A stretch of 64,000 nucleotides of DNA from Escherichia phage phi92: the sequence record NC_023693.1. The stretch is one strand, 5' to 3'. Positions 1 through 9,525 of the stretch are shown here, piece by piece. Numbering within the stretch: the stretch's first letter is position 1; the number at the start of each line of letters is the position of its first letter. The notes under the pieces were generated by a model. It did not search any database. It saw only the letters and a list, made by a program, of their open reading frames with translations, and was not told the origin of the DNA. The position numbers and the translations under genes were made by a program.

Positions 1-342
1 GTTGCGTCTTCTGGTACGCGAGATGATATCATTGATATGTTCGCTCGTTTTACAGGAACAGAAAAAGAAACGATCAATACATACGTTGGATTAAATAAAA
101 CATTCGACGTATTCTTTTATAATTTGTGTCTACAATCCGATCAGGCAGTAGCACAGTTACTTAACGTTTTCCCGATCCTAAGTAGTTATCGCTTAGGTGC
201 GAAAGCGGGTGCAGCCTTTGGTTTCACTTCCTATTATGCCACAACTCCACCTCATGGTATAGGTGGTTTAGGTTCTCTTTACACAGAGGCTGAAGGAGAT
301 GATACAGGGCGAATGACTATGCTGATAGCTCAAATAGAATAA
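1..342 (+). CDS. C-terminal part of a protein whose start lies upstream of the window (probable virion/tail-module protein)
   Basis: Frame is open from position 1 to the stop at 340-342; lies directly upstream of tail-fibre genes; no motif recognised. Confidence 0.35.
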   Translation, partial: VASSGTRDDIIDMFARFTGTEKETINTYVGLNKTFDVFFYNLCLQSDQAVAQLLNVFPILSSYRLGAKAGAAFGFTSYYATTPPHGIGGLGSLYTEAEGDDTGRMTMLIAQIE

Positions 343-355
343 GGAGTTACTCTTA

Positions 356-1336
356 ATGGCAAAGCCACAATACTACCCTGACTGGGCGACACAAACAGTA
401 ACCCTCCCAGGAACGGGAAACACAAACAAGATTAGACCAAAAGAAACCATCCGTAATGTTGGTATGGACTTTGGTCAGATTATGACTTGTGAAGAAATGA
501 ACTGGATCTTAAACAATATTGGGTCTTGGATTCGCTATATGCAAGATGAATTCTTCCCAACATTGCCTACTACATATCTTCCTATAGTCGGTACTAAAAT
601 TACAATGGCAGGTGATGCTACAGGTGAAGTTACATGGAATGGTAATGCTGCTGTAACATTATCTATTCAAGTAGTAGATAACAGCCATAATCACTTATCA
701 GCTAACATTACAGACGCAACATCAAACCAAGTTGTAGGGAATGTCCTTGTTAAGCGTGATAATGGTGGTGCTATCTATGCAGGTGATATTTACACTTGTG
801 GTACAGGTGCTACAGATCCTGCAACATTATTCTTTAGAAACTACAACGGACAAACAGTAGGTAATATGTCCTCTGAACCAGGTGCAGGTGGTCAACTCTA
901 TATTTATAGAATAAACCCATCAACTGGAGGAACATCTTGTGCAGTCCGTTTATATGATGCAGGTTATGTTTTAATAGACAATCCTCGTTCTAATTCTGGT
1001 CAAGATACTGGTAATGGTAATGCTCTTGTAAGATTAGATTATCTTAACTCAAGACTAAACTCATTGCAAAGTACACTGCAAAATAATATTAACAACGTTA
1101 ATAGCAACTTGCAAGGCCAAATTAATAACATTAACAATAGAGTTTCTTCTGTTGTGTCTTCTATCCGTCTAGGTACACGTATTAAAGCTGGTGTGTCTGA
1201 GTCTCGTTTCTATGCTGGTCACGTGATCACAGGTTGGGGTTTTGGTGACAAGAAAGAACTTCGTGGTGCTTGGTATTGGTCTGCTCCGCTACAATATTAC
1301 ATTAATGGTAGGTGGATAACAGTAACCAACGTTTAG
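356..1336 (+). CDS. tail fibre protein
   Basis: RBS aaggag upstream; N/Q/S-rich heptad segment NSRLNSLQSTLQNNINNVNSNLQGQINNINNR typical of fibre coiled coils; followed by a Tfa-like chaperone gene. Confidence 0.55.
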   Translation: MAKPQYYPDWATQTVTLPGTGNTNKIRPKETIRNVGMDFGQIMTCEEMNWILNNIGSWIRYMQDEFFPTLPTTYLPIVGTKITMAGDATGEVTWNGNAAVTLSIQVVDNSHNHLSANITDATSNQVVGNVLVKRDNGGAIYAGDIYTCGTGATDPATLFFRNYNGQTVGNMSSEPGAGGQLYIYRINPSTGGTSCAVRLYDAGYVLIDNPRSNSGQDTGNGNALVRLDYLNSRLNSLQSTLQNNINNVNSNLQGQINNINNRVSSVVSSIRLGTRIKAGVSESRFYAGHVITGWGFGDKKELRGAWYWSAPLQYYINGRWITVTNV

Positions 1337-1348
1337 TAAGGAGAACAC

Positions 1349-1900
1349 ATGAAAAAAGATGTTATTTACACTGGCTTTGAACTATATCAACCAGAATTGA
1401 CAGAAGAAAATGTCATCTATCTTTCAATAGGTGCTGGTTTTCTTAAAGATAAAGATGGTAATGATTGGTACGAAATTCAGAAATATTTATCCAAAAATTA
1501 CCCTGATGCCTATTTCTTAACTCTAGATCACAACAATGTAGTTGTTGCAGCTACGAAAGATGTTTCTACATATTTTCCCGCTGGTCTTACTGTTCTTGTA
1601 ACATACAATGTTCCAGATAAAATAGAAGAAGAAAGCAACCTAGGGTCGTGGAGATATGACAATGGTAAGTTTATTTCTCATAATGGGTTTGCAATAGAAG
1701 ATGCCAACCTTAAGATGGAAAAAGAATTAACTTGGGCCACAAATCAAATATCTGCAATTCAAGATTTAGAGGAATTACAAGGTTTATCTGAAGAACAAAA
1801 AGATTGGTTAGGAAAAGTTAAACTATATCGTGCAACACTGATTCAAATTAACGTTGAAGATGCACCTAATATAACTTGGCCTACAAGACCTAAGAAATAG
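1349..1900 (+). CDS. tail fibre assembly chaperone (Tfa-like)
   Basis: C-terminus WLGKVKLYRATLIQINVEDAPNITWPTRP resembles the conserved tail-fibre-assembly C-terminal signature; RBS aaggag. Confidence 0.5.
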   Translation: MKKDVIYTGFELYQPELTEENVIYLSIGAGFLKDKDGNDWYEIQKYLSKNYPDAYFLTLDHNNVVVAATKDVSTYFPAGLTVLVTYNVPDKIEEESNLGSWRYDNGKFISHNGFAIEDANLKMEKELTWATNQISAIQDLEELQGLSEEQKDWLGKVKLYRATLIQINVEDAPNITWPTRPKK

Positions 1901-1909
1901 GGGTAATGT

Positions 1910-2251
1910 ATGGAGCTAACAGAAGTATGGGATATCGCTAAAGAGGCGATTATCCCTCTTATTGGTGTAATCTGGGTGGTCTTCAAACAGAAGATAGATG
2001 ATATAGCAAGTGATTTGGATAAAATGGAAGACAAATACCGCGAACTAGAAAAGAAGTTGGTGTTTGTTGAATCCACTTATGCTACCAAAGCAGAACTTGC
2101 TCAAATGCTTAACCAGATCAACTCTACATTAATGGCAAATAATACTGCCTTAGAACAGAAGATTGAAAAAATAATGGATTTAAAAAATGCTCCTGTTCAA
2201 TTAATGCTAGAGGAGATTACGAAGCGCACACAAAGTAAGGACAAAAATTAA
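1910..2251 (+). CDS. small membrane-anchored coiled-coil protein, function unknown
   Basis: 113 aa ORF; hydrophobic segment IIPLIGVIWVVF then charged helical region. Confidence 0.35.
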   Translation: MELTEVWDIAKEAIIPLIGVIWVVFKQKIDDIASDLDKMEDKYRELEKKLVFVESTYATKAELAQMLNQINSTLMANNTALEQKIEKIMDLKNAPVQLMLEEITKRTQSKDKN

Positions 2252-4665
2252 TGGCGAATTTTCCAACATATCCTGCTACGACACTAGAACAAGGTGTTGA
2301 TCTGGTTATATTCTCGTCTAACCAGATGCATGATGTTATTAATGGGGATGCTACAGCAACTGTAGAAACCGAAACAGGTTTAATACCTACACTGCGTAAA
2401 GCACTTGTTGATAACTTCTTCTTTAAGAGTCCTGTTGCTTGGTCAGCAGGATCAACTGAAACTGTATTTAACCAGTTACGTTATTTTGAAAACGGTATCT
2501 TGAGTGGGTACTATTATGCCCCATCTGCCACTACTGCGAACCCTGTACCTATGCAGGGCACACCTGTAGGGGACAGTAACTGGACTCTGTACGCTCTTAA
2601 AACTGAACAGTTAGCTTCAGATGTGTATCCTTGGTATTTTAAAGGTGCTACAGGATATGAAACAGAAATCAGTCCTCCTTATATCTTTGATAATGCTATT
2701 GTCACCATTAACGGTGTAATTCAGATTCAAGGTGAAGCATTTACTATCAAAGATAGTAAAATTATTCTGGCAGAACCATTAGGTTTAGATCCGTCTACTG
2801 GTCTACCTAACAAATTGTTTGCTTTTATTGGTAAAACAACAGCCTCTACTTCTTACGTAGAGAAAAACCTTTTGTCATCTACCACTGGTGCAGCAATGGT
2901 TGGTCTTCCATCTGGAGGCAACCTGTTACAAGCTCAATACTTTGTAACGCCTGAGCAGTTTGGTGCAATTGGTGATGGAGTTACCGATGATACTCAAGCA
3001 ATTTTAAAAACTATTACTTTCGCTAACACGAATAACATTCAAGTACGTGCAGATAAGAATTATAGATTCACAAGCTCAATTGCTATGTCTGGTGTTCGTT
3101 GGTATGGTGGTACATTCACTGGTAACGGTGGAACAATGATTTCTACTGTGTCCTGTTGGATGGAAAACGTTCGCTTTGAAAAATGTTATGTTAAGATGTT
3201 AGGTGGTGATTGCCGATTCTATCGTAATATCTTCTCCAACGCAACATCTACAGCAGCATTCTTAATGCAAGCAATGACAAGTGAAGGTACGTTGGACTTC
3301 AGTTACAACGAAATGTATGGTTGTAAATATGCGATCCTGCAACAAGGTACTGGAGAAGTAATGACCTATGGGCGTTACTCTAACAACTATATTCACGATA
3401 TCAAAGGTGATGCTATTGAACTTAACGTAGTTCAAAAACACTACACTGAAGGTTTGATTATCGAGAATAACCACATTGCTAACGTAGATGCTTCTGGACA
3501 AGGTGCAAACTGGGGTATTGGTATTGGTGTAGCAGGTAGTGGCCCATATGGTGTTGATGTTCCTGATTCACAATATGTACGTAACTTCAGTATCGTTGGG
3601 AATAGGGTTTACAATTGCCGTCAATGTCTACACGTTGAAATGGGTAAAAACTTCACGATACGTGATAATGAAGTTTATCCTAACACAGCAGTTTCAACAG
3701 GTACAGGTTTAACTACTTGTGGTGTTGCATTATACGGATGCCAAGATTTTGAAGTTGATGGTTTAACTGGTTATCTGCTTAATGATCCATCTGTTTCAAC
3801 ACGCATGGTCTTTATTGACTGGGGTGTTAACAATGGTAGATATGCGGGGCCACCAATTAACTTTACAATTAAGAATTTGGATATTCCAGAATCTTCAATT
3901 GAGATTGCAACATCTGGATCAGATGCCTGGGAAAACTCTACAATTGTTAGTAATATCAATTGTAATGTTTTTAAATGGCGTGGGCTACCATCTAGCTCTA
4001 CCTTTAATAATATTCGTTGCCGTAGTATTGACTTTATTGGTCAACACGGAAGCGGAGAAGGAAGTGGTGGCGGTTTCTATACTCGCAGCCAATTCACGTA
4101 TATGAAGTGGGTAGGATGTACAGCACTTAGCGGAGATGAAACAACAGTTTCTTTTGCTAAAATCTACACTGATCGTTGCGATCAGGTTGGAAATAACTTT
4201 GGTGTTCCAACTGCTGTTGATGGTACAGGTCATCGTGGGCCAGTTTTAACTACTATTTCTGAACAATATTTTACAGCTTATGATGAATTCCCAGGTGGGC
4301 GTGAATTCCCTACTGGAACAGTTATTCATTGTGCAAGCGGTAAAAAACATGTTGTTACAGTAGGTGGTGCTTTCTTTAGTGACAACGAGAAAATAAAAGC
4401 AACTGTTACAGGTCAAACCTATCTACAGTCTAATGCTTTAAACTGGGCTAGTAATGGCTACGCTAAAGCAGCAGGTACTAAGATTGTTATTCCAGGTGCA
4501 GGTGCAAATGGCGGCGATCTTGTGACAACTATAGCACGTGCTACATACGTGACAAATAGTTTGTACACAATAGATATTGCAGATCCAATTGTAACACCTA
4601 CAGCAGAGAATACACAAATTAAAGCTCTGAATCCTGTTACTTTTGTTACTGTCAATAATGCTTAA
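2251..4665 (+). CDS. tailspike / depolymerase with pectate-lyase-like beta-helix
   Basis: 804 aa; motif FGAIGDGVTDDTQAI typical of pectate-lyase-fold tailspikes; repetitive G/N/T/V-rich beta-strand segments. Confidence 0.65.
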   Translation: MANFPTYPATTLEQGVDLVIFSSNQMHDVINGDATATVETETGLIPTLRKALVDNFFFKSPVAWSAGSTETVFNQLRYFENGILSGYYYAPSATTANPVPMQGTPVGDSNWTLYALKTEQLASDVYPWYFKGATGYETEISPPYIFDNAIVTINGVIQIQGEAFTIKDSKIILAEPLGLDPSTGLPNKLFAFIGKTTASTSYVEKNLLSSTTGAAMVGLPSGGNLLQAQYFVTPEQFGAIGDGVTDDTQAILKTITFANTNNIQVRADKNYRFTSSIAMSGVRWYGGTFTGNGGTMISTVSCWMENVRFEKCYVKMLGGDCRFYRNIFSNATSTAAFLMQAMTSEGTLDFSYNEMYGCKYAILQQGTGEVMTYGRYSNNYIHDIKGDAIELNVVQKHYTEGLIIENNHIANVDASGQGANWGIGIGVAGSGPYGVDVPDSQYVRNFSIVGNRVYNCRQCLHVEMGKNFTIRDNEVYPNTAVSTGTGLTTCGVALYGCQDFEVDGLTGYLLNDPSVSTRMVFIDWGVNNGRYAGPPINFTIKNLDIPESSIEIATSGSDAWENSTIVSNINCNVFKWRGLPSSSTFNNIRCRSIDFIGQHGSGEGSGGGFYTRSQFTYMKWVGCTALSGDETTVSFAKIYTDRCDQVGNNFGVPTAVDGTGHRGPVLTTISEQYFTAYDEFPGGREFPTGTVIHCASGKKHVVTVGGAFFSDNEKIKATVTGQTYLQSNALNWASNGYAKAAGTKIVIPGAGANGGDLVTTIARATYVTNSLYTIDIADPIVTPTAENTQIKALNPVTFVTVNNA

Positions 4666-4672
4666 TTAAAAA

Positions 4673-4690
4673 GGGGCGAAAGCCCCTTTA
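4673..4690 (+). terminator. rho-independent terminator hairpin
   Basis: GGGGC-GAAA-GCCCC followed by TTTA, immediately after tailspike stop. Confidence 0.5.
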
Positions 4691-4706
4691 TAAAAGGAGT
4701 AGTAAA

Positions 4707-6668
4707 GTGATTTTAACACGTCCAAATAGTGCCATTGCAGACATGGTAGAGTCTCGCTATAGAAAGCGTAGAAGTTTTGCAAGTGGTTTTACCTTAAGAG
4801 ATGCTCGTGAAGCATTGCTCTTTGAAACTGACGGTAACTACTATCAGTGGAAAGGTTCTCTACCTAAAGTTGTACCTGCTAACTCTACTCCTACATCTAC
4901 TGGAGGGATTTCAGATACAGCTTGGAAAAATGTGGGTAATGCAGATGACATTGCTCAAATAGAATCAGAATTAGATGCTATTGAAGCTGAAATTGAAGAT
5001 CTTAGAGAATCCATCCCAGAAGCTGGTAAATCAGCTTACCAAATTGCCGTAGACAATGGTTTCCAAGGTACTGAGACACAGTGGTTGGCTTCTTTAAAAG
5101 GTGATCCAGGTGCTCCATTAAAGCTACTAGGGACGCTATCTAATACCAACCAATTACCTACAACTGGAAACAATGCAGGGGATGCATGGATTGTAGGCGA
5201 GAATATGTATGCTTGGGATGGTACTGCTTGGAGAAAAGTAAACTCACAGGGGCCAGAAGGTAAATCTGCTTATGAAGTATGGCTTGCAGCAGGAAACGAA
5301 GGTACAGAACTAGATTATCTTGCCGCAATTAAAGGTGATAAAGGGGAGCCTGGCCCAGAGGGGCCACAAGGTGTGCCAGGTAATAATGCTAATGGTTTTG
5401 ATTACCAAGGCGCAGCTAATTCCGTTTCAGATCTTCCTTCTGCATCTCCTGGAAACACATCTCAAGCATGGAGTATTGGTACATATCTATACGTGTCAAA
5501 CGGTGTAGAATGGATCAATATGGGCGCTATAGTGGGGCCAAAAGGAGATAAAGGCGACAAAGGAGATAAGGGTAACACTGGTGATTCAGCTTATCAAGTC
5601 TGGTTAAATGCTGGTAACGTTGGTACTATTGACGAATATATTGCCTCTCTGAAAGGAGAAAAAGGTGATAAGGGAGACAAGGGTGATCAAGGTGCACAGG
5701 GTATACAAGGCTTGACGGGGCCAACTGGTGCAGGGTTGACCATTATTGACATTCTGACTAGCACTTCTGAACTACCACAAACTGGAGAAGATGGTGATGG
5801 TTATCTGATCAATAATGAACTTTGGGTCTGGTTGCAAGGAGCCACAGAGTGGACAAATGTTGGTCGTTTAGCTGGTACTCCAATCACTGCAAAAGGATAC
5901 GTTGCGTCTGCAAGTGCACTTCCTCCTACAGCCAATTACGGTGATGCTTATCTGACGGAAGATACAGGTCATCTTTACATTTACACCTATGATGAACAAA
6001 CTCAAACTGCTGAATATGTAGATATGGGTAGTTTGAAAGGTGATAAGGGTGAAAAAGGTGACGCTGGTACTAACGGTACAGACGGTGCAACTTGGATTGT
6101 TAAAACAACAGATCCAATCTCTAGTGATGGTAAACAAGGTGATTATGCCTTTAATATCTCCACTGGCGAGGTGTTCTTAAAAACATCTGCAACTATCTGG
6201 ACTTCTCAAGGTACACTACCTAGTATCACAGATGCACCTAGTGATGGTAAGACTTATGCTCGTAAAGATGGAGCATGGGAAGAACTCACTAATTCTGTAG
6301 ATGGTCAAGATATAGTTCCAACAAAAGTAACAACTAATTTTATAGAGGTTACAGCATATACTAACAATTCTGTTACAGGGGACTGGACACCTCCAGGAAC
6401 ACATAACATGAATGTGTTGAATCTTACTGGTAACTCTACTATAAAAGCATGGCCTGGTGTCGAAGATAGCACAAAACCTAAACCATTCTCTGCAATAGTT
6501 TATCTTATCCAAGATGCCACTGGAGGTCGTACTGTTACTTTAGATCCATCTTACAAAGTAATTGGTTCCAGTGATATTAATACAGATCCTAACGGAGTAA
6601 CAATACTACAACTAACATATTGTGGTGTTGGCGATTACGTGGATGCTATTGTTGCTAAACGCACATAA
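4707..6668 (+). CDS. tail fibre with collagen-like G-X-Y repeats
   Basis: 653 aa; runs GDKGEPGPEGPQGVPG and GPKGDKGDKGDKGNTGD and GEKGDKGDKGDQGAQGIQGLTGPTG; RBS aaggag. Confidence 0.6.
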   Translation: MILTRPNSAIADMVESRYRKRRSFASGFTLRDAREALLFETDGNYYQWKGSLPKVVPANSTPTSTGGISDTAWKNVGNADDIAQIESELDAIEAEIEDLRESIPEAGKSAYQIAVDNGFQGTETQWLASLKGDPGAPLKLLGTLSNTNQLPTTGNNAGDAWIVGENMYAWDGTAWRKVNSQGPEGKSAYEVWLAAGNEGTELDYLAAIKGDKGEPGPEGPQGVPGNNANGFDYQGAANSVSDLPSASPGNTSQAWSIGTYLYVSNGVEWINMGAIVGPKGDKGDKGDKGNTGDSAYQVWLNAGNVGTIDEYIASLKGEKGDKGDKGDQGAQGIQGLTGPTGAGLTIIDILTSTSELPQTGEDGDGYLINNELWVWLQGATEWTNVGRLAGTPITAKGYVASASALPPTANYGDAYLTEDTGHLYIYTYDEQTQTAEYVDMGSLKGDKGEKGDAGTNGTDGATWIVKTTDPISSDGKQGDYAFNISTGEVFLKTSATIWTSQGTLPSITDAPSDGKTYARKDGAWEELTNSVDGQDIVPTKVTTNFIEVTAYTNNSVTGDWTPPGTHNMNVLNLTGNSTIKAWPGVEDSTKPKPFSAIVYLIQDATGGRTVTLDPSYKVIGSSDINTDPNGVTILQLTYCGVGDYVDAIVAKRT

Positions 6669-6672
6669 TCAA

Positions 6673-6697
6673 AGCCCCTTCGGGGGCTTATTATTTA
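6673..6697 (+). terminator. rho-independent terminator hairpin
   Basis: AAGCCCC-TTCG-GGGGCTT followed by a T-rich run after the fibre gene. Confidence 0.5.
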
Positions 6698-6707
6698 AGG
6701 AGATTAA

Positions 6708-7316
6708 ATGTATCCTATTCCTTTATTTATGTCAACAACATCAGCTTCAGTAGTAACAGCTACATCTATAACTACTTCCTCTATTGGTATTGCAATAGTT
6801 GGTGGTAAAAAACAACTGACATACACAGTTACACCGGAAGATGGTGCATTATTTGATATAGCTTTTTCATCTTCAGATAATACCAAAATGGTTATAGATA
6901 ATAGTGGTATGATGGAGTTTGTTGCCGAAGGTGGTTTTGATGCAATAATGACAGCTAAAAATAATTTAGGTGCTGTCTTAACTGATCAATCTGGTGGCTA
7001 TGCTTCAGAATTAAGTGTGTACACTGAAAGTCTATCGGCTATGGATGTAGGCACTACTCAACAGTTGGTTGCTACAATCAGTCCAGAAGGTGCTAAAGAC
7101 CTTCCAGATATGGTAATTACATACACCACAACAGATCCAGAAGTAGCTACTGTAAGCCCTACAGGGTTAATAACTGCTCTTAAAGATGGCGGTTGCCGTA
7201 TAGGTTGTACTGCAACGTATCAAGGAACAGTTGTGGCCTCTGATAGGTCTTATTTAGGTGTTAATGCTATTCCTGTTATTTCTAATGTAACAGCCGTATC
7301 TTTAATAACTCAATAG
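6708..7316 (+). CDS. Ig-like (Big_2-type) domain protein
   Basis: 202 aa; T/S/V-rich beta-sandwich-like sequence with ...VATVSPTGLITALKDGGCRIGCTATYQG resembling bacterial Ig-like group 2 domains. Confidence 0.45.
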   Translation: MYPIPLFMSTTSASVVTATSITTSSIGIAIVGGKKQLTYTVTPEDGALFDIAFSSSDNTKMVIDNSGMMEFVAEGGFDAIMTAKNNLGAVLTDQSGGYASELSVYTESLSAMDVGTTQQLVATISPEGAKDLPDMVITYTTTDPEVATVSPTGLITALKDGGCRIGCTATYQGTVVASDRSYLGVNAIPVISNVTAVSLITQ

Positions 7317-8370
7317 CTACAGATGATTCGTTCATTAAAGAAGTTATTGTCTTTGCTGGACAAGATAACGTAAATGCACACTTTACAGAACTATCTGGTG
7401 CAAATAAAGCAGCAATGAGTAGCACAACAGCCCGTAATGCATATGCTACGCAACGTGGTTTAGCAAATGCTGAAGTTCTTCCGTGTTAAATACAGCTTCT
7501 GGATCATCAGCAGCAGATAAATATGCTGACGATAAAGCTGGAACAGGTACACCAGATAACTACTGGTATGATCTGGATAACACAGCAGATGGGCCATGCT
7601 TAACTAACTTTATCACTAAAGTCACACCTTATGCAAGTAAGGTTAAAGCAATTATTTGGGGACAAGGTGAAAATGATGCTGTATCAGCATCTTCGACTGT
7701 TGCAGGTAGGTACAGTAACACTACACGTTACCATGATGCTACGATAGCTATCTTTGATAAGATGCGTACAATAGTTCCTGCTTCTCAAGCAAAAATTGTT
7801 TGGCAGATCCTAGGACGTTCTTATTTATATGGTGTAGAAGTTAATGGTGTGGATTGGCAGAAGTACAGAAATGTACAAAGAACCATCTCTACAGCACGTG
7901 ATGATGTTATCATTGGTTCTTGGGTAGATGGTGCTGAACGTTACAGTGGTTATGTTTATGAAGAAGGTATTGATGGTCGTATCCATTATATTTCTTCTGT
8001 ATACCAAACAGCAGCTACAAAACTTGCTAAATCAGCAGCAGACGGTACAGATTTAACATCAACGTCACCTGTTTGGGTTGATATGTCTGTTCCAACAGGA
8101 GGAGCCGCTGTAAGACAAGCTAACCAAGATGTAATTATCTCTTGGGAACCAGCAGGATATACTAAACATTACTTCCGAAATGTAAACGTCCTCACAGCAG
8201 CAATTCTTACAGAACAAACCCTGGATACTAACACTTACACATTTACTTATGCAGATCAGGTTGAACAATATGGATTTGCAGCAGGTACAACAGTGTTTGA
8301 TGTTGCACACTATGATGCTGATAATGACGTGTTATCACCTCTTGTCAGATTTACAGTCAATGTTACATAA
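7286..8370 (+). pseudogene. SGNH/SASA-type carbohydrate esterase, reading frame interrupted
   Basis: N-terminal block FIKEVIVFAGQDNVNAHF is in one frame (about 7286-7489, no ATG start); remainder with IIWGQGENDA continues in another frame from GTG 7483 to 8370. Confidence 0.45.
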
Positions 8371-8377
8371 ACAAAAA

Positions 8378-8402
8378 GGAGCCATTAGGCTCCTTTTCTT
8401 TT
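8378..8402. terminator. bidirectional terminator hairpin at convergent strand switch
   Basis: GGAGCC-ATTA-GGCTCC flanked by A-run and T-run; + strand genes end at 8370, - strand genes end at 8406. Confidence 0.5.
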
Positions 8403-8405
8403 ATC

Positions 8406-8837
8406 TTAATCAGTGAAAATTACGCTTACATCTTCTTTAGAGAAGAGTTTATGATCTTCACCTTTTGTCTCAAGAGTTTCATACAGATTAAGAAGTTCTG
8501 AAACGTCTTTCTCTACCAGTTTCTTCAATGTTGCAATTTTCTGTTTGCGACTCTTAATACGTTCAGCTACAACCTTACGCTGGTATCCGGCAGTACGATA
8601 ACCTGAGAAAGTTACACCAGTGAGACTTGCAGTTACAGGATCGTAGTGACGTTCAATCTGAAATTTATTAAAAGGTACAGCGTCATCACGAATAATCTTA
8701 CCGCCATTACTTACTTGACGAAGACCAGTAACTTGCTCCAGTCGTGCCATAGAAATCTTTGGAGACAGACCAGAGTCTAGGTTCATACCATTGTTAATCA
8801 GTGCTTTCAGGGTGATTTTGCTGTTCAGTGTACTCAT
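8406..8837 (-). CDS. hypothetical protein
   Basis: 143 aa ORF; strong RBS ggagga upstream of the start; start overlaps the methyltransferase 3' end by 44 nt. Confidence 0.4.
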   Translation of the reverse strand: MSTLNSKITLKALINNGMNLDSGLSPKISMARLEQVTGLRQVSNGGKIIRDDAVPFNKFQIERHYDPVTASLTGVTFSGYRTAGYQRKVVAERIKSRKQKIATLKKLVEKDVSELLNLYETLETKGEDHKLFSKEDVSVIFTD

Positions 8838-9525
8838 TTAGTCGTTCCTCCGCTTGCTTAAAAATATTTACATCGGCTTCACAGCCAAAGTATTCTCTAC
8901 CTGTTAAAAGTGCCGCAACTTGTGTTGTTGCACTTCCAGAGAAGAAGTCTAAGACTACATCTCCTTCGTTGGTGTGTATATTAATAAGGTCACAAAACAA
9001 AGTCAAGTGTTTTTGTGTTGGATGAAAACGATCTGCTCCTTGATAGATAGGATACTCAAACACACCCTTATGGTAGGAAGCATTGAAGGTTGGCTTCGAA
9101 CCTTTAACACAAACAATAGCCATCTCTTTAGCGTTACTAAGATAGTTAACACCACTGTTGATGGGTACAGGGTTTGTTTTAATCCATTCAATAGTACGGA
9201 ACATACGAAAACCAAGCGGTTCAAGGATTTCACGTAGCTCCTGGATCTTCCAGATATCATACCAAACTATGCAAGTACCACCTTTTCTAAGCACCCTGTA
9301 GGCTTCTTTGAATACTTCTTTAAAGTAAGGAATATCTACAACATCCCAATCACCAAAGTTGTAAGATACACGGAATCTATCCGTATCTTTTCCAGTCGGC
9401 TCTCCAGATTGAAAATTTGTGTCACGAGAAATAGCATATGGTGGGTCAGTAAGAATCAAATCTACACTATTGCTTTCGAGGGTTTGCAGGTAGTTTAATG
9501 CGGTGTTGTTTACAAATTCGCTCAT
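8794..9525 (-). CDS. DNA methyltransferase (N6-adenine or N4-cytosine, DPPY type)
   Basis: Motif IV LILTDPPYA precedes motif I VVLDFFSGSATT; RBS aaggag; no restriction endonuclease gene recognised nearby. Confidence 0.7.
   Translation of the reverse strand: MSEFVNNTALNYLQTLESNSVDLILTDPPYAISRDTNFQSGEPTGKDTDRFRVSYNFGDWDVVDIPYFKEVFKEAYRVLRKGGTCIVWYDIWKIQELREILEPLGFRMFRTIEWIKTNPVPINSGVNYLSNAKEMAIVCVKGSKPTFNASYHKGVFEYPIYQGADRFHPTQKHLTLFCDLINIHTNEGDVVLDFFSGSATTQVAALLTGREYFGCEADVNIFKQAEERLNEYTEQQNHPESTD

What the first reader, a model, noticed from the sequence alone, without database searches (positions are those of the whole stretch)
356..6668. Three distinct receptor-binding proteins encoded in tandem
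A coiled-coil fibre with its own chaperone, an 804-residue pectate-lyase-fold tailspike and a collagen-like fibre are encoded back to back, each followed by its own terminator. This points to a multi-receptor adsorption apparatus with at least one polysaccharide depolymerase activity.
Basis: partly seen in the sequence, partly recalled or inferred. Interest (0 to 1): 0.35.

Follow-up and report, generated by a model that had tools for sequence, protein, structure and literature searches.

The report
Known phi92 tail-fibre gene cluster

Summary
The ORFs exist exactly where stated. An exact-sequence look-up shows they are phage phi92 gp147 to gp151, so the window is the phi92 genome (genus Justusliebigvirus).

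- **gp147 (356-1336)** is the short tail fibre, "fibre III" in the 2026 cryo-EM study.
- **gp148** is its lambda-Tfa/Mu-U-type chaperone.
- **gp150 (2251-4665)** is the colanidase tailspike. Residues 180-804 are 100% identical to crystal structure 6E0V.
- **gp151 (4707-6668)** has a tailspike-type N-terminal domain, four short collagen-like runs, a foldon-like motif and a C-terminal domain.

The reading as a multi-receptor adsorption apparatus with a depolymerase is supported. It was published in 2012 as the phi92 "multivalent adsorption apparatus".

Corrections to the observation:
- Only gp150 and gp151 are followed by a hairpin. Nothing follows gp147, gp148 or gp149.
- A 113-aa ORF (gp149) was overlooked.
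- The coiled coil in gp147 is one helix of about 45 residues.
- The module continues upstream, outside the window (gp140-143), and downstream (gp152/gp153).

In this genome gp152/gp153 is a frame-broken copy of a fibre gene that is intact in all relatives.

One modest lead: the gp150 N-terminus is homologous to the baseplate-docking domain of the phiTE long tail fibre. This bears on the still unassigned phi92 fibre II.

Novelty: already known. Interest is low.

The parts
37..342 (+). C-terminal part of the baseplate wedge protein gp146 (context; the window starts inside this gene).
   Evidence: PHROG 4056 'baseplate protein', E 2e-29. Synteny with arall_12 and PATM_075. gp146 is modelled as a wedge subunit in PMC13450770.
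356..1336 (+). gp147, the short tail fibre ('fibre III'). It has an N-terminal baseplate-docking domain (aa 2-72), a beta-rich shaft, one coiled-coil helix at about aa 227-273 (nt 1034-1174) and a C-terminal tip.
   Evidence: Exact match to CBY99576 Phi92_gp147. PHROG 4465, E 3e-109. N-terminus homologous to the phiTE short tail fibre in PDB 9CUY, E 3e-11. Assigned to fibre III by cryo-EM. Homologous to the Mu S/U locus and linked to LPS-core dependence. Helix seen in the AF2 model.
1349..1900 (+). gp148, tail fibre assembly chaperone for gp147.
   Evidence: Pfam Caudo_TAP PF02413, 43.9 bits against a cut-off of 22.1. PHROG 136, E 4e-44. Exact match to Phi92_gp148.
1910..2251 (+). gp149, a 113-aa protein with an N-terminal hydrophobic segment and a coiled coil. 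Its stop overlaps the gp150 start.
   Evidence: ORF seen. Exact match to Phi92_gp149. PHROG 15210 'lipoprotein' at E 2e-70, but the protein has no cysteine. Weak Rz-like spanin hit at E 9e-4.
2251..4665 (+). gp150, the colanidase tailspike. It has an N-terminal phiTE-LTF-like docking domain (aa 12-126), a small beta domain (aa 123-179), the crystallised catalytic part (aa 180-804) and a C-terminal TSP Ig-like domain (aa 704-792).
   Evidence: Residues 180-804 are 100% identical to PDB 6E0V/6E0W 'Bacteriophage Phi92 gp150'. PHROG 6117, E 4e-270. Pfam TSP_Ig-like, 55.3 bits. N-terminus against 9CUY chain g, E 9e-19. Enzyme activity is cited and the pectin-lyase-fold classification.
4670..4689 (+). 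GC-rich hairpin (AAAGGGGC-GAAA-GCCCCTTT) after gp150. It has no U-tract, so it is at best a weak terminator or an RNA-stabilising hairpin.
   Evidence: dG -14.5 kcal/mol. Not called by the terminator scan. The equivalent site is annotated 'terminator' in phage PATM.
4707..6668 (+). gp151, the collagen-like fibre. It has a Tail_spike_N domain (aa 11-77), an acidic helix (about aa 80-105) and four G-X-Y runs (aa 210-227, 277-294, 317-343, 445-462) interleaved with globular repeats. A foldon-like motif (aa 504-529) and a C-terminal domain (aa 526-653) follow.
   Evidence: Exact match to Phi92_gp151. Pfam Tail_spike_N 75.6 bits, Collagen 33.2 bits, Fibritin_C 19.5 bits against a cut-off of 21. G-X-Y count. 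Foldon hits in the PDB. N-terminal domain shared with CBA120 TSP1-4 and other tailspikes.
6672..6689 (+). Terminator-like hairpin after gp151 (AAGCCCC-TTCG-GGGGCTT, followed by ATTATTT).
   Evidence: Called by the scan. dG -13.1.
6708..8370 (+). gp152 (6708-7316) and gp153 (7483-8370), with an unannotated middle piece (7298-7486, third frame). Together they are a frame-broken copy of the Ig-like plus SASA-like 'tail carbohydrate esterase' fibre gene, which is intact in relatives at 628 or 939 aa.
   Evidence: DNA and protein alignments to arall_18 show 226 nt missing (aa 198-272) and a GT insertion near 7471. PHROG 32204 is matched by both halves. Pfam Big_2, 55 bits. No other record shares the lesion.
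8374..8397 (.). Bidirectional intrinsic terminator that closes the fibre module, where it meets the convergent minus-strand genes (gp154 onwards).
   Evidence: Called on both strands. dG -15.4 with a T-tract.

Best explanation
Window 356-6668 is the distal half of the tail-fibre module of Escherichia phage phi92 (Justusliebigvirus, Stephanstirmvirinae). It encodes three unrelated trimeric host-recognition proteins. Together with the upstream fibres gp141-143 (outside the window), they form the published multivalent adsorption apparatus.

Shown:
- gp147 is the downward-pointing short tail fibre that docks on the wedge.
- gp150 is a beta-helix glycoside hydrolase that cleaves colanic acid.

Inferred:
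- gp148 folds the gp147 tip and is probably not retained in the virion.
- gp147 binds the LPS outer core irreversibly and passes the trigger to the wedge and sheath initiator.
- gp150 sits on the baseplate through its N-terminal 126 residues and strips the colanic-acid slime layer, so that the phage can reach the outer membrane.
- gp151 is a flexible fibre attached through a CBA120-type Tail_spike_N domain. Its collagen-like segments trimerise with help from an internal foldon-like motif, and its C-terminal 125-residue domain binds an unknown ligand.
- The genes are co-transcribed late, with partial attenuation at the hairpins after gp150 and gp151.
For: - Identity: eight consecutive proteins are exact matches to phi92 gp147-gp154. 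The DNA is 95-99% identical to more than 50 Justusliebigvirus genomes with the same gene order.
- gp147: tail-fibre PHROGs, an N-terminus like that of the phiTE short tail fibre, which binds wedge 1, and the fibre III assignment by cryo-EM. It is related to Mu S/U, and phi92-like phages depend on waaC and waaG.
- gp148: Caudo_TAP above the Pfam cut-off.
- gp150: 100% identical to crystal structure 6E0V. Colanic-acid hydrolase activity is cited. It is classed in the pectin-lyase-fold family and listed as 'colanidase tailspike'.
- gp151: Tail_spike_N and Collagen above their cut-offs, Fibritin_C just below. G-X-Y runs counted and foldon similarity seen. It is listed as a potential tail fibre and as one of four fibres conserved at over 97% in ESCO phages.
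- Multivalency: the 'Swiss army knife' description appears.
Against: - I could not read the primary 2012 paper, so virion mass-spectrometry evidence for gp150 and gp151 is not cited here.
- The receptors of gp147 and gp151 are inferred, not demonstrated.
- My own structure predictions were too poor to use (pLDDT 40.5 and 34.3).
Confidence: 0.93

Rival explanations
1. gp151 is not a tail receptor-binding protein. It is a head or neck fibre (decoration or whisker) that merely sits in the tail-fibre gene cluster.
For: PMC13450770 reports that the predicted gp151 structure resembles the head spike gp52 of phage Pa223 and does not fit the fibre II density. Collagen-like segments with a foldon-like motif recall T4 fibritin, which is a neck whisker.
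Against: Its N-terminal domain is the Tail_spike_N module found in CBA120 TSP1-4 and many baseplate tailspikes. The same module occurs in the variable tailspike slot of a relative, ECGD1_151. The gene lies between the tailspike and another fibre gene in one transcription unit. The literature lists it as a tail fibre.
Confidence: 0.12
2. gp150 is an accessory enzyme only. It removes colanic acid but does not determine host range or act as a receptor-binding protein. Under this reading, the region holds one true terminal receptor binder (gp147) plus helpers, not three receptor specificities.
For: gp147-gp151 are 95-99% conserved across the genus, while host range differs between members. Host-range differences map to the gp143 slot and to gp142, which targets the NGR glycan. 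Colanic acid is a stress-induced slime shared by most E. coli, not a strain-specific receptor.
Against: Binding and cleaving a surface polysaccharide is what tailspike receptor-binding proteins do by definition. The enzyme is built as a tailspike with a baseplate-docking N-terminus.
Confidence: 0.25
3. The ORFs are chance open frames or an assembly artefact.
For: None.
Against: Exact matches to deposited phi92 proteins, a solved crystal structure and dozens of syntenic genomes.
Confidence: 0

Closest known systems
Escherichia phage phi92 multivalent adsorption apparatus (Schwarzer et al. 2012; cryo-EM 2026, PMC13450770)
   Same: It is the same object. The gp147-gp154 proteins are identical in sequence, and the colanidase crystal construct is 100% identical.
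   Different: Nothing differs. The window covers only the distal half of the module; gp140-143 lie upstream of position 1.
Other Justusliebigvirus phages (arall, ECGD1, PaulScherrer, VEcB, BME3 and others)
   Same: The gene order is the same, with 95-99% DNA identity across gp147-gp151.
   Different: They carry an intact 628- or 939-aa fibre/esterase gene where phi92 has the broken gp152/gp153. They also lack the phi92 endosialidase gp143.
Pectobacterium phage phiTE short and long tail fibres (PDB 9CUY/9MJN)
   Same: gp147 aa 2-72 resembles the N-terminus of the short fibre, which binds wedge 1. gp150 aa 12-126 resembles aa 15-130 of the long fibre, which binds wedge 2A and the sheath-initiator helix. 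The sheath initiators are also homologous.
   Different: The distal parts are unrelated. The phiTE long fibre is an extended beta-helix fibre on a flagellotropic phage, whereas gp150 is an enzymatic tailspike.
Mu S/U, P2 H/G and lambda Stf/Tfa fibre-chaperone pairs
   Same: A fibre gene is followed directly by a Caudo_TAP-family chaperone. Maffei et al. state the homology to Mu GpS/GpU.
   Different: There is no invertible segment and no alternative fibre tips. Here the fibre is the short, downward-pointing baseplate fibre.
Branched tailspike complexes of CBA120 (TSP1-4) and G7C (gp63.1/gp66)
   Same: gp151 carries the Tail_spike_N (TSP1/Gp66) domain, and several different receptor-binding proteins sit on one baseplate.
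   Different: In gp151 the domain lies at the very N-terminus and is followed by collagen-like segments instead of a beta-helix enzyme.
T4 fibritin foldon and bacterial or phage collagen-like proteins
   Same: The motif DAPSDGKTYARKDGAWEEL resembles the foldon. The G-X-Y runs pass the Pfam Collagen threshold.
   Different: The foldon-like motif scores just below the Pfam cut-off (19.5 bits against 21). It is internal, and a further domain follows it.

Membership tests
phi92 / Justusliebigvirus tail-fibre module | Protein sequences identical or nearly identical to phi92 gp147-gp151 | tested here: met
   The exact-sequence look-up returns CBY99576-CBY99580. PDB 6E0V is 100% identical over 625 aa.
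phi92 / Justusliebigvirus tail-fibre module | Conserved gene order: wedge, short fibre, chaperone, small ORF, colanidase, collagen-like fibre, Ig/esterase fibre, then convergent genes | tested here: met
   The order is the same in arall, KMB37, PATM and ECGD1.
Caudo_TAP tail fibre assembly proteins (PF02413) | Score above the Pfam gathering threshold, and position directly downstream of a fibre gene | tested here: met
   43.9 bits against 22.1. The gene starts 12 nt after gp147.
Pectin/pectate-lyase-fold (right-handed beta-helix) tailspikes | Sequence-profile match to a beta-helix or pectate-lyase-like family above threshold | tested here: not met
   PF12708 scores only 13.9 bits against a cut-off of 27 (E 0.049), over aa 236-475.
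Pectin/pectate-lyase-fold (right-handed beta-helix) tailspikes | Three-dimensional fold | tested here: inconclusive
   My single-sequence AF2 model was unusable (pLDDT 34.3). However, the protein is identical to crystal structure 6E0V, which a published HHpred/InterPro analysis places in IPR011050, the pectin lyase fold family.
Polysaccharide depolymerase (colanidase) | Demonstrated cleavage of colanic acid | not testable with these tools
   Reported in the literature. It hydrolyses the beta-1,4 Glc-Fuc linkage (Xu et al. 2025, as cited in PMC13450770). It is a hydrolase, not a lyase.
Collagen triple-helix repeat proteins (PF01391) | Uninterrupted G-X-Y repeats, and a score above the Pfam threshold | tested here: met
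   33.2 bits against 27.2. The runs are 6, 6, 9 and 6 triplets, so they are short and interrupted.
Tail_spike_N (PF18668, CBA120 TSP1 / G7C Gp66 N-terminal domain) | Score above the Pfam threshold | tested here: met
   75.6 bits against 25, over aa 11-77. PDB hits to CBA120 TSP1, TSP3 and TSP4.
Coiled-coil fibre | An extended heptad-repeat helix forming most of the shaft | tested here: not met
   There is only one helix, about aa 227-273 (pLDDT 62-83 in an otherwise poor model). Hydrophobic residues at 3-4 spacing are visible in the sequence. The remaining 280 residues or so are not helical.
Intrinsic terminator after each fibre gene | A GC-rich hairpin followed by a U-tract in each downstream intergenic gap | tested here: not met
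   There is none after gp147, gp148 or gp149. The hairpin after gp150 has no U-tract. The hairpin after gp151 has a weak T-rich tail.
SGNH/SASA carbohydrate esterase (gp152/153 and their intact orthologues) | Score above the Pfam threshold, and an intact reading frame | tested here: not met
   SASA scores 14-16 bits against a cut-off of 24.8. In this window the gene is split over three frames.

The most novel reading that the evidence does not exclude
The N-terminal 126 residues of the colanidase gp150 are a phiTE-LTF-type 'rip-cord' anchor. [quoted passage not shown] That would make gp150 the baseplate-proximal element of the fibre that the 2026 cryo-EM study could not assign (fibre II, or the arm of fibre I). 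It would also link polysaccharide engagement mechanically to sheath triggering.
Probability: 0.35. Interest if true: 0.35.

Novelty: already known. Interest (0 to 1): 0.07.

Why it matters
For discovery it matters little. phi92 is the textbook example of a phage carrying several different tail fibres and tailspikes, and its colanidase has a crystal structure and a characterised activity.

The re-analysis is useful mainly as a sanity check.

Two small pointers come out of it:
- A sequence-based clue about where gp150 is anchored on the baseplate. The latest structural paper calls the assignment of fibre II "a significant challenge".
- In the deposited phi92 genome, the fibre/esterase gene that follows gp151 is frame-broken, unlike in every relative examined.

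Tried and rejected
- **Structure prediction.** Single-sequence AlphaFold2 of gp147 and of gp150(180-804) gave mean pLDDT 40.5 and 34.3. This was too poor for a fold search, so none was run.
- **Primary paper.** I tried to read Schwarzer et al. 2012 by DOI and by PMC id, but it is not held. Its content is cited only through papers that cite it.
- **phi92 record.** The phi92 GenBank record is not in the phage collection. Identity was established through the exact protein look-up instead.
- **Pfam at E up to 10 for gp150.** This gave only a sub-threshold pectate-lyase-like hit.
- **PDB search with the repeat region of gp151 (aa 91-428).** Nothing found.
- **Paralogy search.** BLASTP and phmmer among all fibre-module proteins, including the upstream fibres of relatives, found only one shared module. 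That is the Tail_spike_N domain of gp151 and ECGD1_151. I therefore rejected the idea that the three proteins are diverged duplicates.
- **o-spanin search.** I looked for a small lipoprotein ORF embedded in or next to gp149, which would make it an i-spanin. None was found at 20 aa or longer.
- **Sigma-70 promoter scan.** No enrichment: 27 sites against 26.2 expected.
- **tRNA scan of the window.** None found.
- **Large protein-database searches.** I deliberately did not run them, because they could not change the verdict.


Full report
**What is in the sequence**

Between 356 and 6668 the + strand carries five closely packed ORFs:
- 356-1336 (326 aa)
- 1349-1900 (183 aa)
- 1910-2251 (113 aa)
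- 2251-4665 (804 aa)
- 4707-6668 (653 aa, GTG start 7 nt after AAGGAG)

The window opens inside a baseplate wedge gene (37-342). After 6668 come two further + strand ORFs (6708-7316 and 7483-8370). A bidirectional terminator follows at 8374-8397, and beyond it the genes run on the minus strand.

**Identity**

- A megablast of 1-9000 finds 57 phage genomes. Of these, 52 cover at least 80% of the query. Identity is 95% or more in 54 of the 57, and nearly all are Justusliebigvirus. The best is phage arall at 99.1%.
- The 804-aa protein is 100% identical over residues 180-804 to PDB 6E0V/6E0W, 'Bacteriophage Phi92 gp150'.
- An exact-sequence look-up of eight consecutive proteins returns Phi92_gp147 to Phi92_gp154 (CBY99576-CBY99583). 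Five of them are seen only on one 148,612-bp contig.
- The window is therefore phi92 itself. The phi92 record is not in the phage collection I could search, which explains why no 100% DNA hit appeared.

**The individual proteins**

*gp147 (356-1336)*
- It matches tail-fibre PHROG 4465 at E 3e-109.
- Its first 72 residues are homologous to the N-terminus of the phiTE short tail fibre (PDB 9CUY, E 3e-11). That part forms the joint attaching the fibre to wedge 1 (PMC11972413).
- The 2026 cryo-EM paper on phi92 assigns gp147 to 'fibre III'. This fibre points downward and rearranges on contraction, and the authors propose that it mediates irreversible binding.
- Maffei et al. call the orthologue in phi92-like BASEL phages the short tail fibre and relate it, with its chaperone, to Mu GpS/GpU. 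They show that these phages need an LPS core with the first outer-core glucose, from the waaC and waaG phenotypes.
- The 'coiled coil' is one helix at about aa 227-273. Hydrophobic residues at 3-4 spacing are visible directly in LNSRLNSLQSTLQNNINNVNSNLQGQINNINNRVSSVVSSI. It is the only confident element of a poor AF2 model.

*gp148 (1349-1900)*
- It is a Caudo_TAP chaperone, scoring 43.9 bits against a cut-off of 22.1.

*gp149 (1910-2251)*
- It has a hydrophobic N-terminal stretch and a coiled coil.
- Its stop overlaps the gp150 ATG (TAATG), which suggests translational coupling.
- It is annotated 'lipoprotein' but contains no cysteine.

*gp150 (2251-4665)*
- It is the colanidase tailspike.
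- Residues 12-126 are about 45% identical to residues 15-130 of the phiTE long tail fibre (E 9e-19).
- Residues 123-179 match a small beta domain found in several tail fibres and adaptors.
- Residues 180-804 are the crystallised part, ending in a TSP Ig-like domain (Pfam, 55.3 bits).
- Pfam detects the pectate-lyase-like fold only below threshold, and my AF2 model was unusable. The fold claim therefore rests on identity to 6E0V and on a published classification in the pectin-lyase-fold family.
- The enzyme hydrolyses the beta-1,4 Glc-Fuc bond of colanic acid (Xu et al. 2025, cited). It is a hydrolase, not a lyase.

*gp151 (4707-6668)*
- It has a Tail_spike_N domain at aa 11-77 (75.6 bits). The same domain occurs in CBA120 TSP1, TSP3 and TSP4 and in many other tailspikes.
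- It has four short G-X-Y runs of 6, 6, 9 and 6 triplets, interleaved with repeated globular units. Pfam Collagen scores 33.2 bits against 27.2.
- It has a foldon-like motif at aa 504-529 (DAPSDGKTYARKDGAWEEL). Fibritin_C scores 19.5 bits against 21, and there are PDB foldon hits.
- It ends in a C-terminal domain of about 125 residues with no solved relative.

The three fibre proteins share no detectable similarity with each other or with the upstream fibres of relatives. The one exception is the Tail_spike_N module, which gp151 shares with the variable tailspike ECGD1_151.

**Terminators**

- The gaps after gp147 (12 nt) and gp148 (9 nt) hold only ribosome-binding sites, and gp149 overlaps gp150.
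- After gp150 there is a stable hairpin (4670-4689, dG -14.5). Its T residues lie within the stem and A residues follow, so the scan did not call it. The equivalent site is annotated as a terminator in phage PATM.
- After gp151 there is a hairpin with a T-rich tail (6672-6689, dG -13.1).
- The only canonical terminator is the bidirectional one at 8374-8397.
- 'Each followed by its own terminator' is therefore only partly right.

**How it works**

The literature describes phi92 as carrying several co-expressed fibres and tailspikes, the 'nanosized Swiss army knife'. These explain its broad host range on encapsulated and non-encapsulated E. coli and on Salmonella. Three fibre types, six trimers each, are seen on the baseplate.

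- Shown: gp147 docks on the wedge as fibre III, and gp150 degrades colanic acid.
- Inferred for gp148: it acts as a folding chaperone.
- Inferred for gp147: it binds the LPS core and passes the trigger to the wedge and sheath initiator.
- Inferred for gp150: it clears the colanic-acid layer.
- Inferred for gp151: it is a flexible fibre with an unknown ligand.

The block gp147-gp151 is the conserved part of the module (95-99% identity across the genus). Host-range differences between members map to the gp143 slot and to gp142, which targets the NGR glycan. These genes lie upstream of the window.

**Open point and a modest lead**

The 2026 structure could not place gp150 or gp151, and it calls the identity of fibre II 'a significant challenge'. 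Three observations bear on this:
- In phiTE, the modelled N-terminus of the long tail fibre binds wedge 2A. [quoted passage not shown]
- gp150 is the only fibre-module protein with that domain.
- phi92 gp139 is homologous to the phiTE sheath initiator through its C-terminal region.

This suggests that gp150 docks directly at the upper outer wedge. It is an inference from homology and has not been tested.

**A side observation**

gp152 and gp153 are fragments of one gene. It is intact at 628 aa in arall, ECGD1 and VEcB, and at 939 aa in KMB37, Paula and BME3.
- Compared with arall_18, phi92 lacks 226 nt (aa 198-272, an Ig/FN3-like unit) and has a GT insertion near 7471.
- The gene therefore lies in three frames. 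The stretch carrying the conserved VFAGQDN block sits in neither annotated ORF.
- No other record shares this lesion.
- I cannot tell whether it is a real pseudogene or an error in the 2011 sequence.

**Verdict**

The core observation is correct and some details are wrong. The object is already known and is in fact the type example. Interest is low.

Noticed in passing
window 6708-8370: gp152 and gp153 are two fragments of a single fibre gene (Ig-like Big_2 plus a SASA-like esterase). The gene is intact in every relative examined, at 628 or 939 aa. phi92 lacks 226 nt and has a 2-nt GT insertion near 7471, so the gene sits in three frames. The stretch with the VFAGQDN block (7298-7486) lies in no annotated ORF. 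This may be a real pseudogene in the laboratory strain or a sequencing error; I could not tell which.
   Followed up: partly
window 1910-2251: gp149 (113 aa) is named 'lipoprotein' in RefSeq and PHROGs but has no cysteine. It has an N-terminal hydrophobic segment and a coiled coil, and a weak resemblance to Rz-like i-spanins. There is no partner o-spanin ORF. Its stop codon overlaps the colanidase start (TAATG), which suggests coupled expression. Its function is unknown.
   Followed up: partly
window 2284-2628 (gp150 aa 12-126): The colanidase N-terminal domain is about 45% identical to the baseplate-docking N-terminus of the phiTE long tail fibre (PDB 9CUY chain g, E 9e-19). In phiTE that domain binds wedge 2A and the sheath-initiator helix. 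This is a possible clue to the unassigned fibre II, or the base of fibre I, in phi92.
   Followed up: partly
window 6216-6293 (gp151 aa 504-529): A foldon-like motif (DAPSDGKTYARKDGAWEEL) closely resembles the T4 fibritin foldon. It lies just after the last collagen-like run and before the C-terminal domain. It is probably the trimerisation nucleus for the collagen-like segments.
   Followed up: partly
GenBank records MG065639, MG065656, MG065689 and MG065645 (hits to window 1-9000): Four records labelled 'Campylobacter phage' (host C. jejuni) match this E. coli phage module. Three are about 97.4% identical over window 1-9000, and the fourth matches only partially (99.2% over 56% of window 6669-8420). 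A 'Serratia phage' record is 98.4% identical. The Campylobacter labels are probably contaminants or mislabelled.
   Followed up: no
window 1-64000: ARAGORN finds no tRNA gene anywhere in the window. The strand and GC-skew pattern runs + to about 8.4 kb, then minus to about 48 kb, then + again. This fits the structural module meeting a long convergent replication module, with the DNA polymerase and primase/helicase genes placed by synteny with arall and PATM.
   Followed up: no
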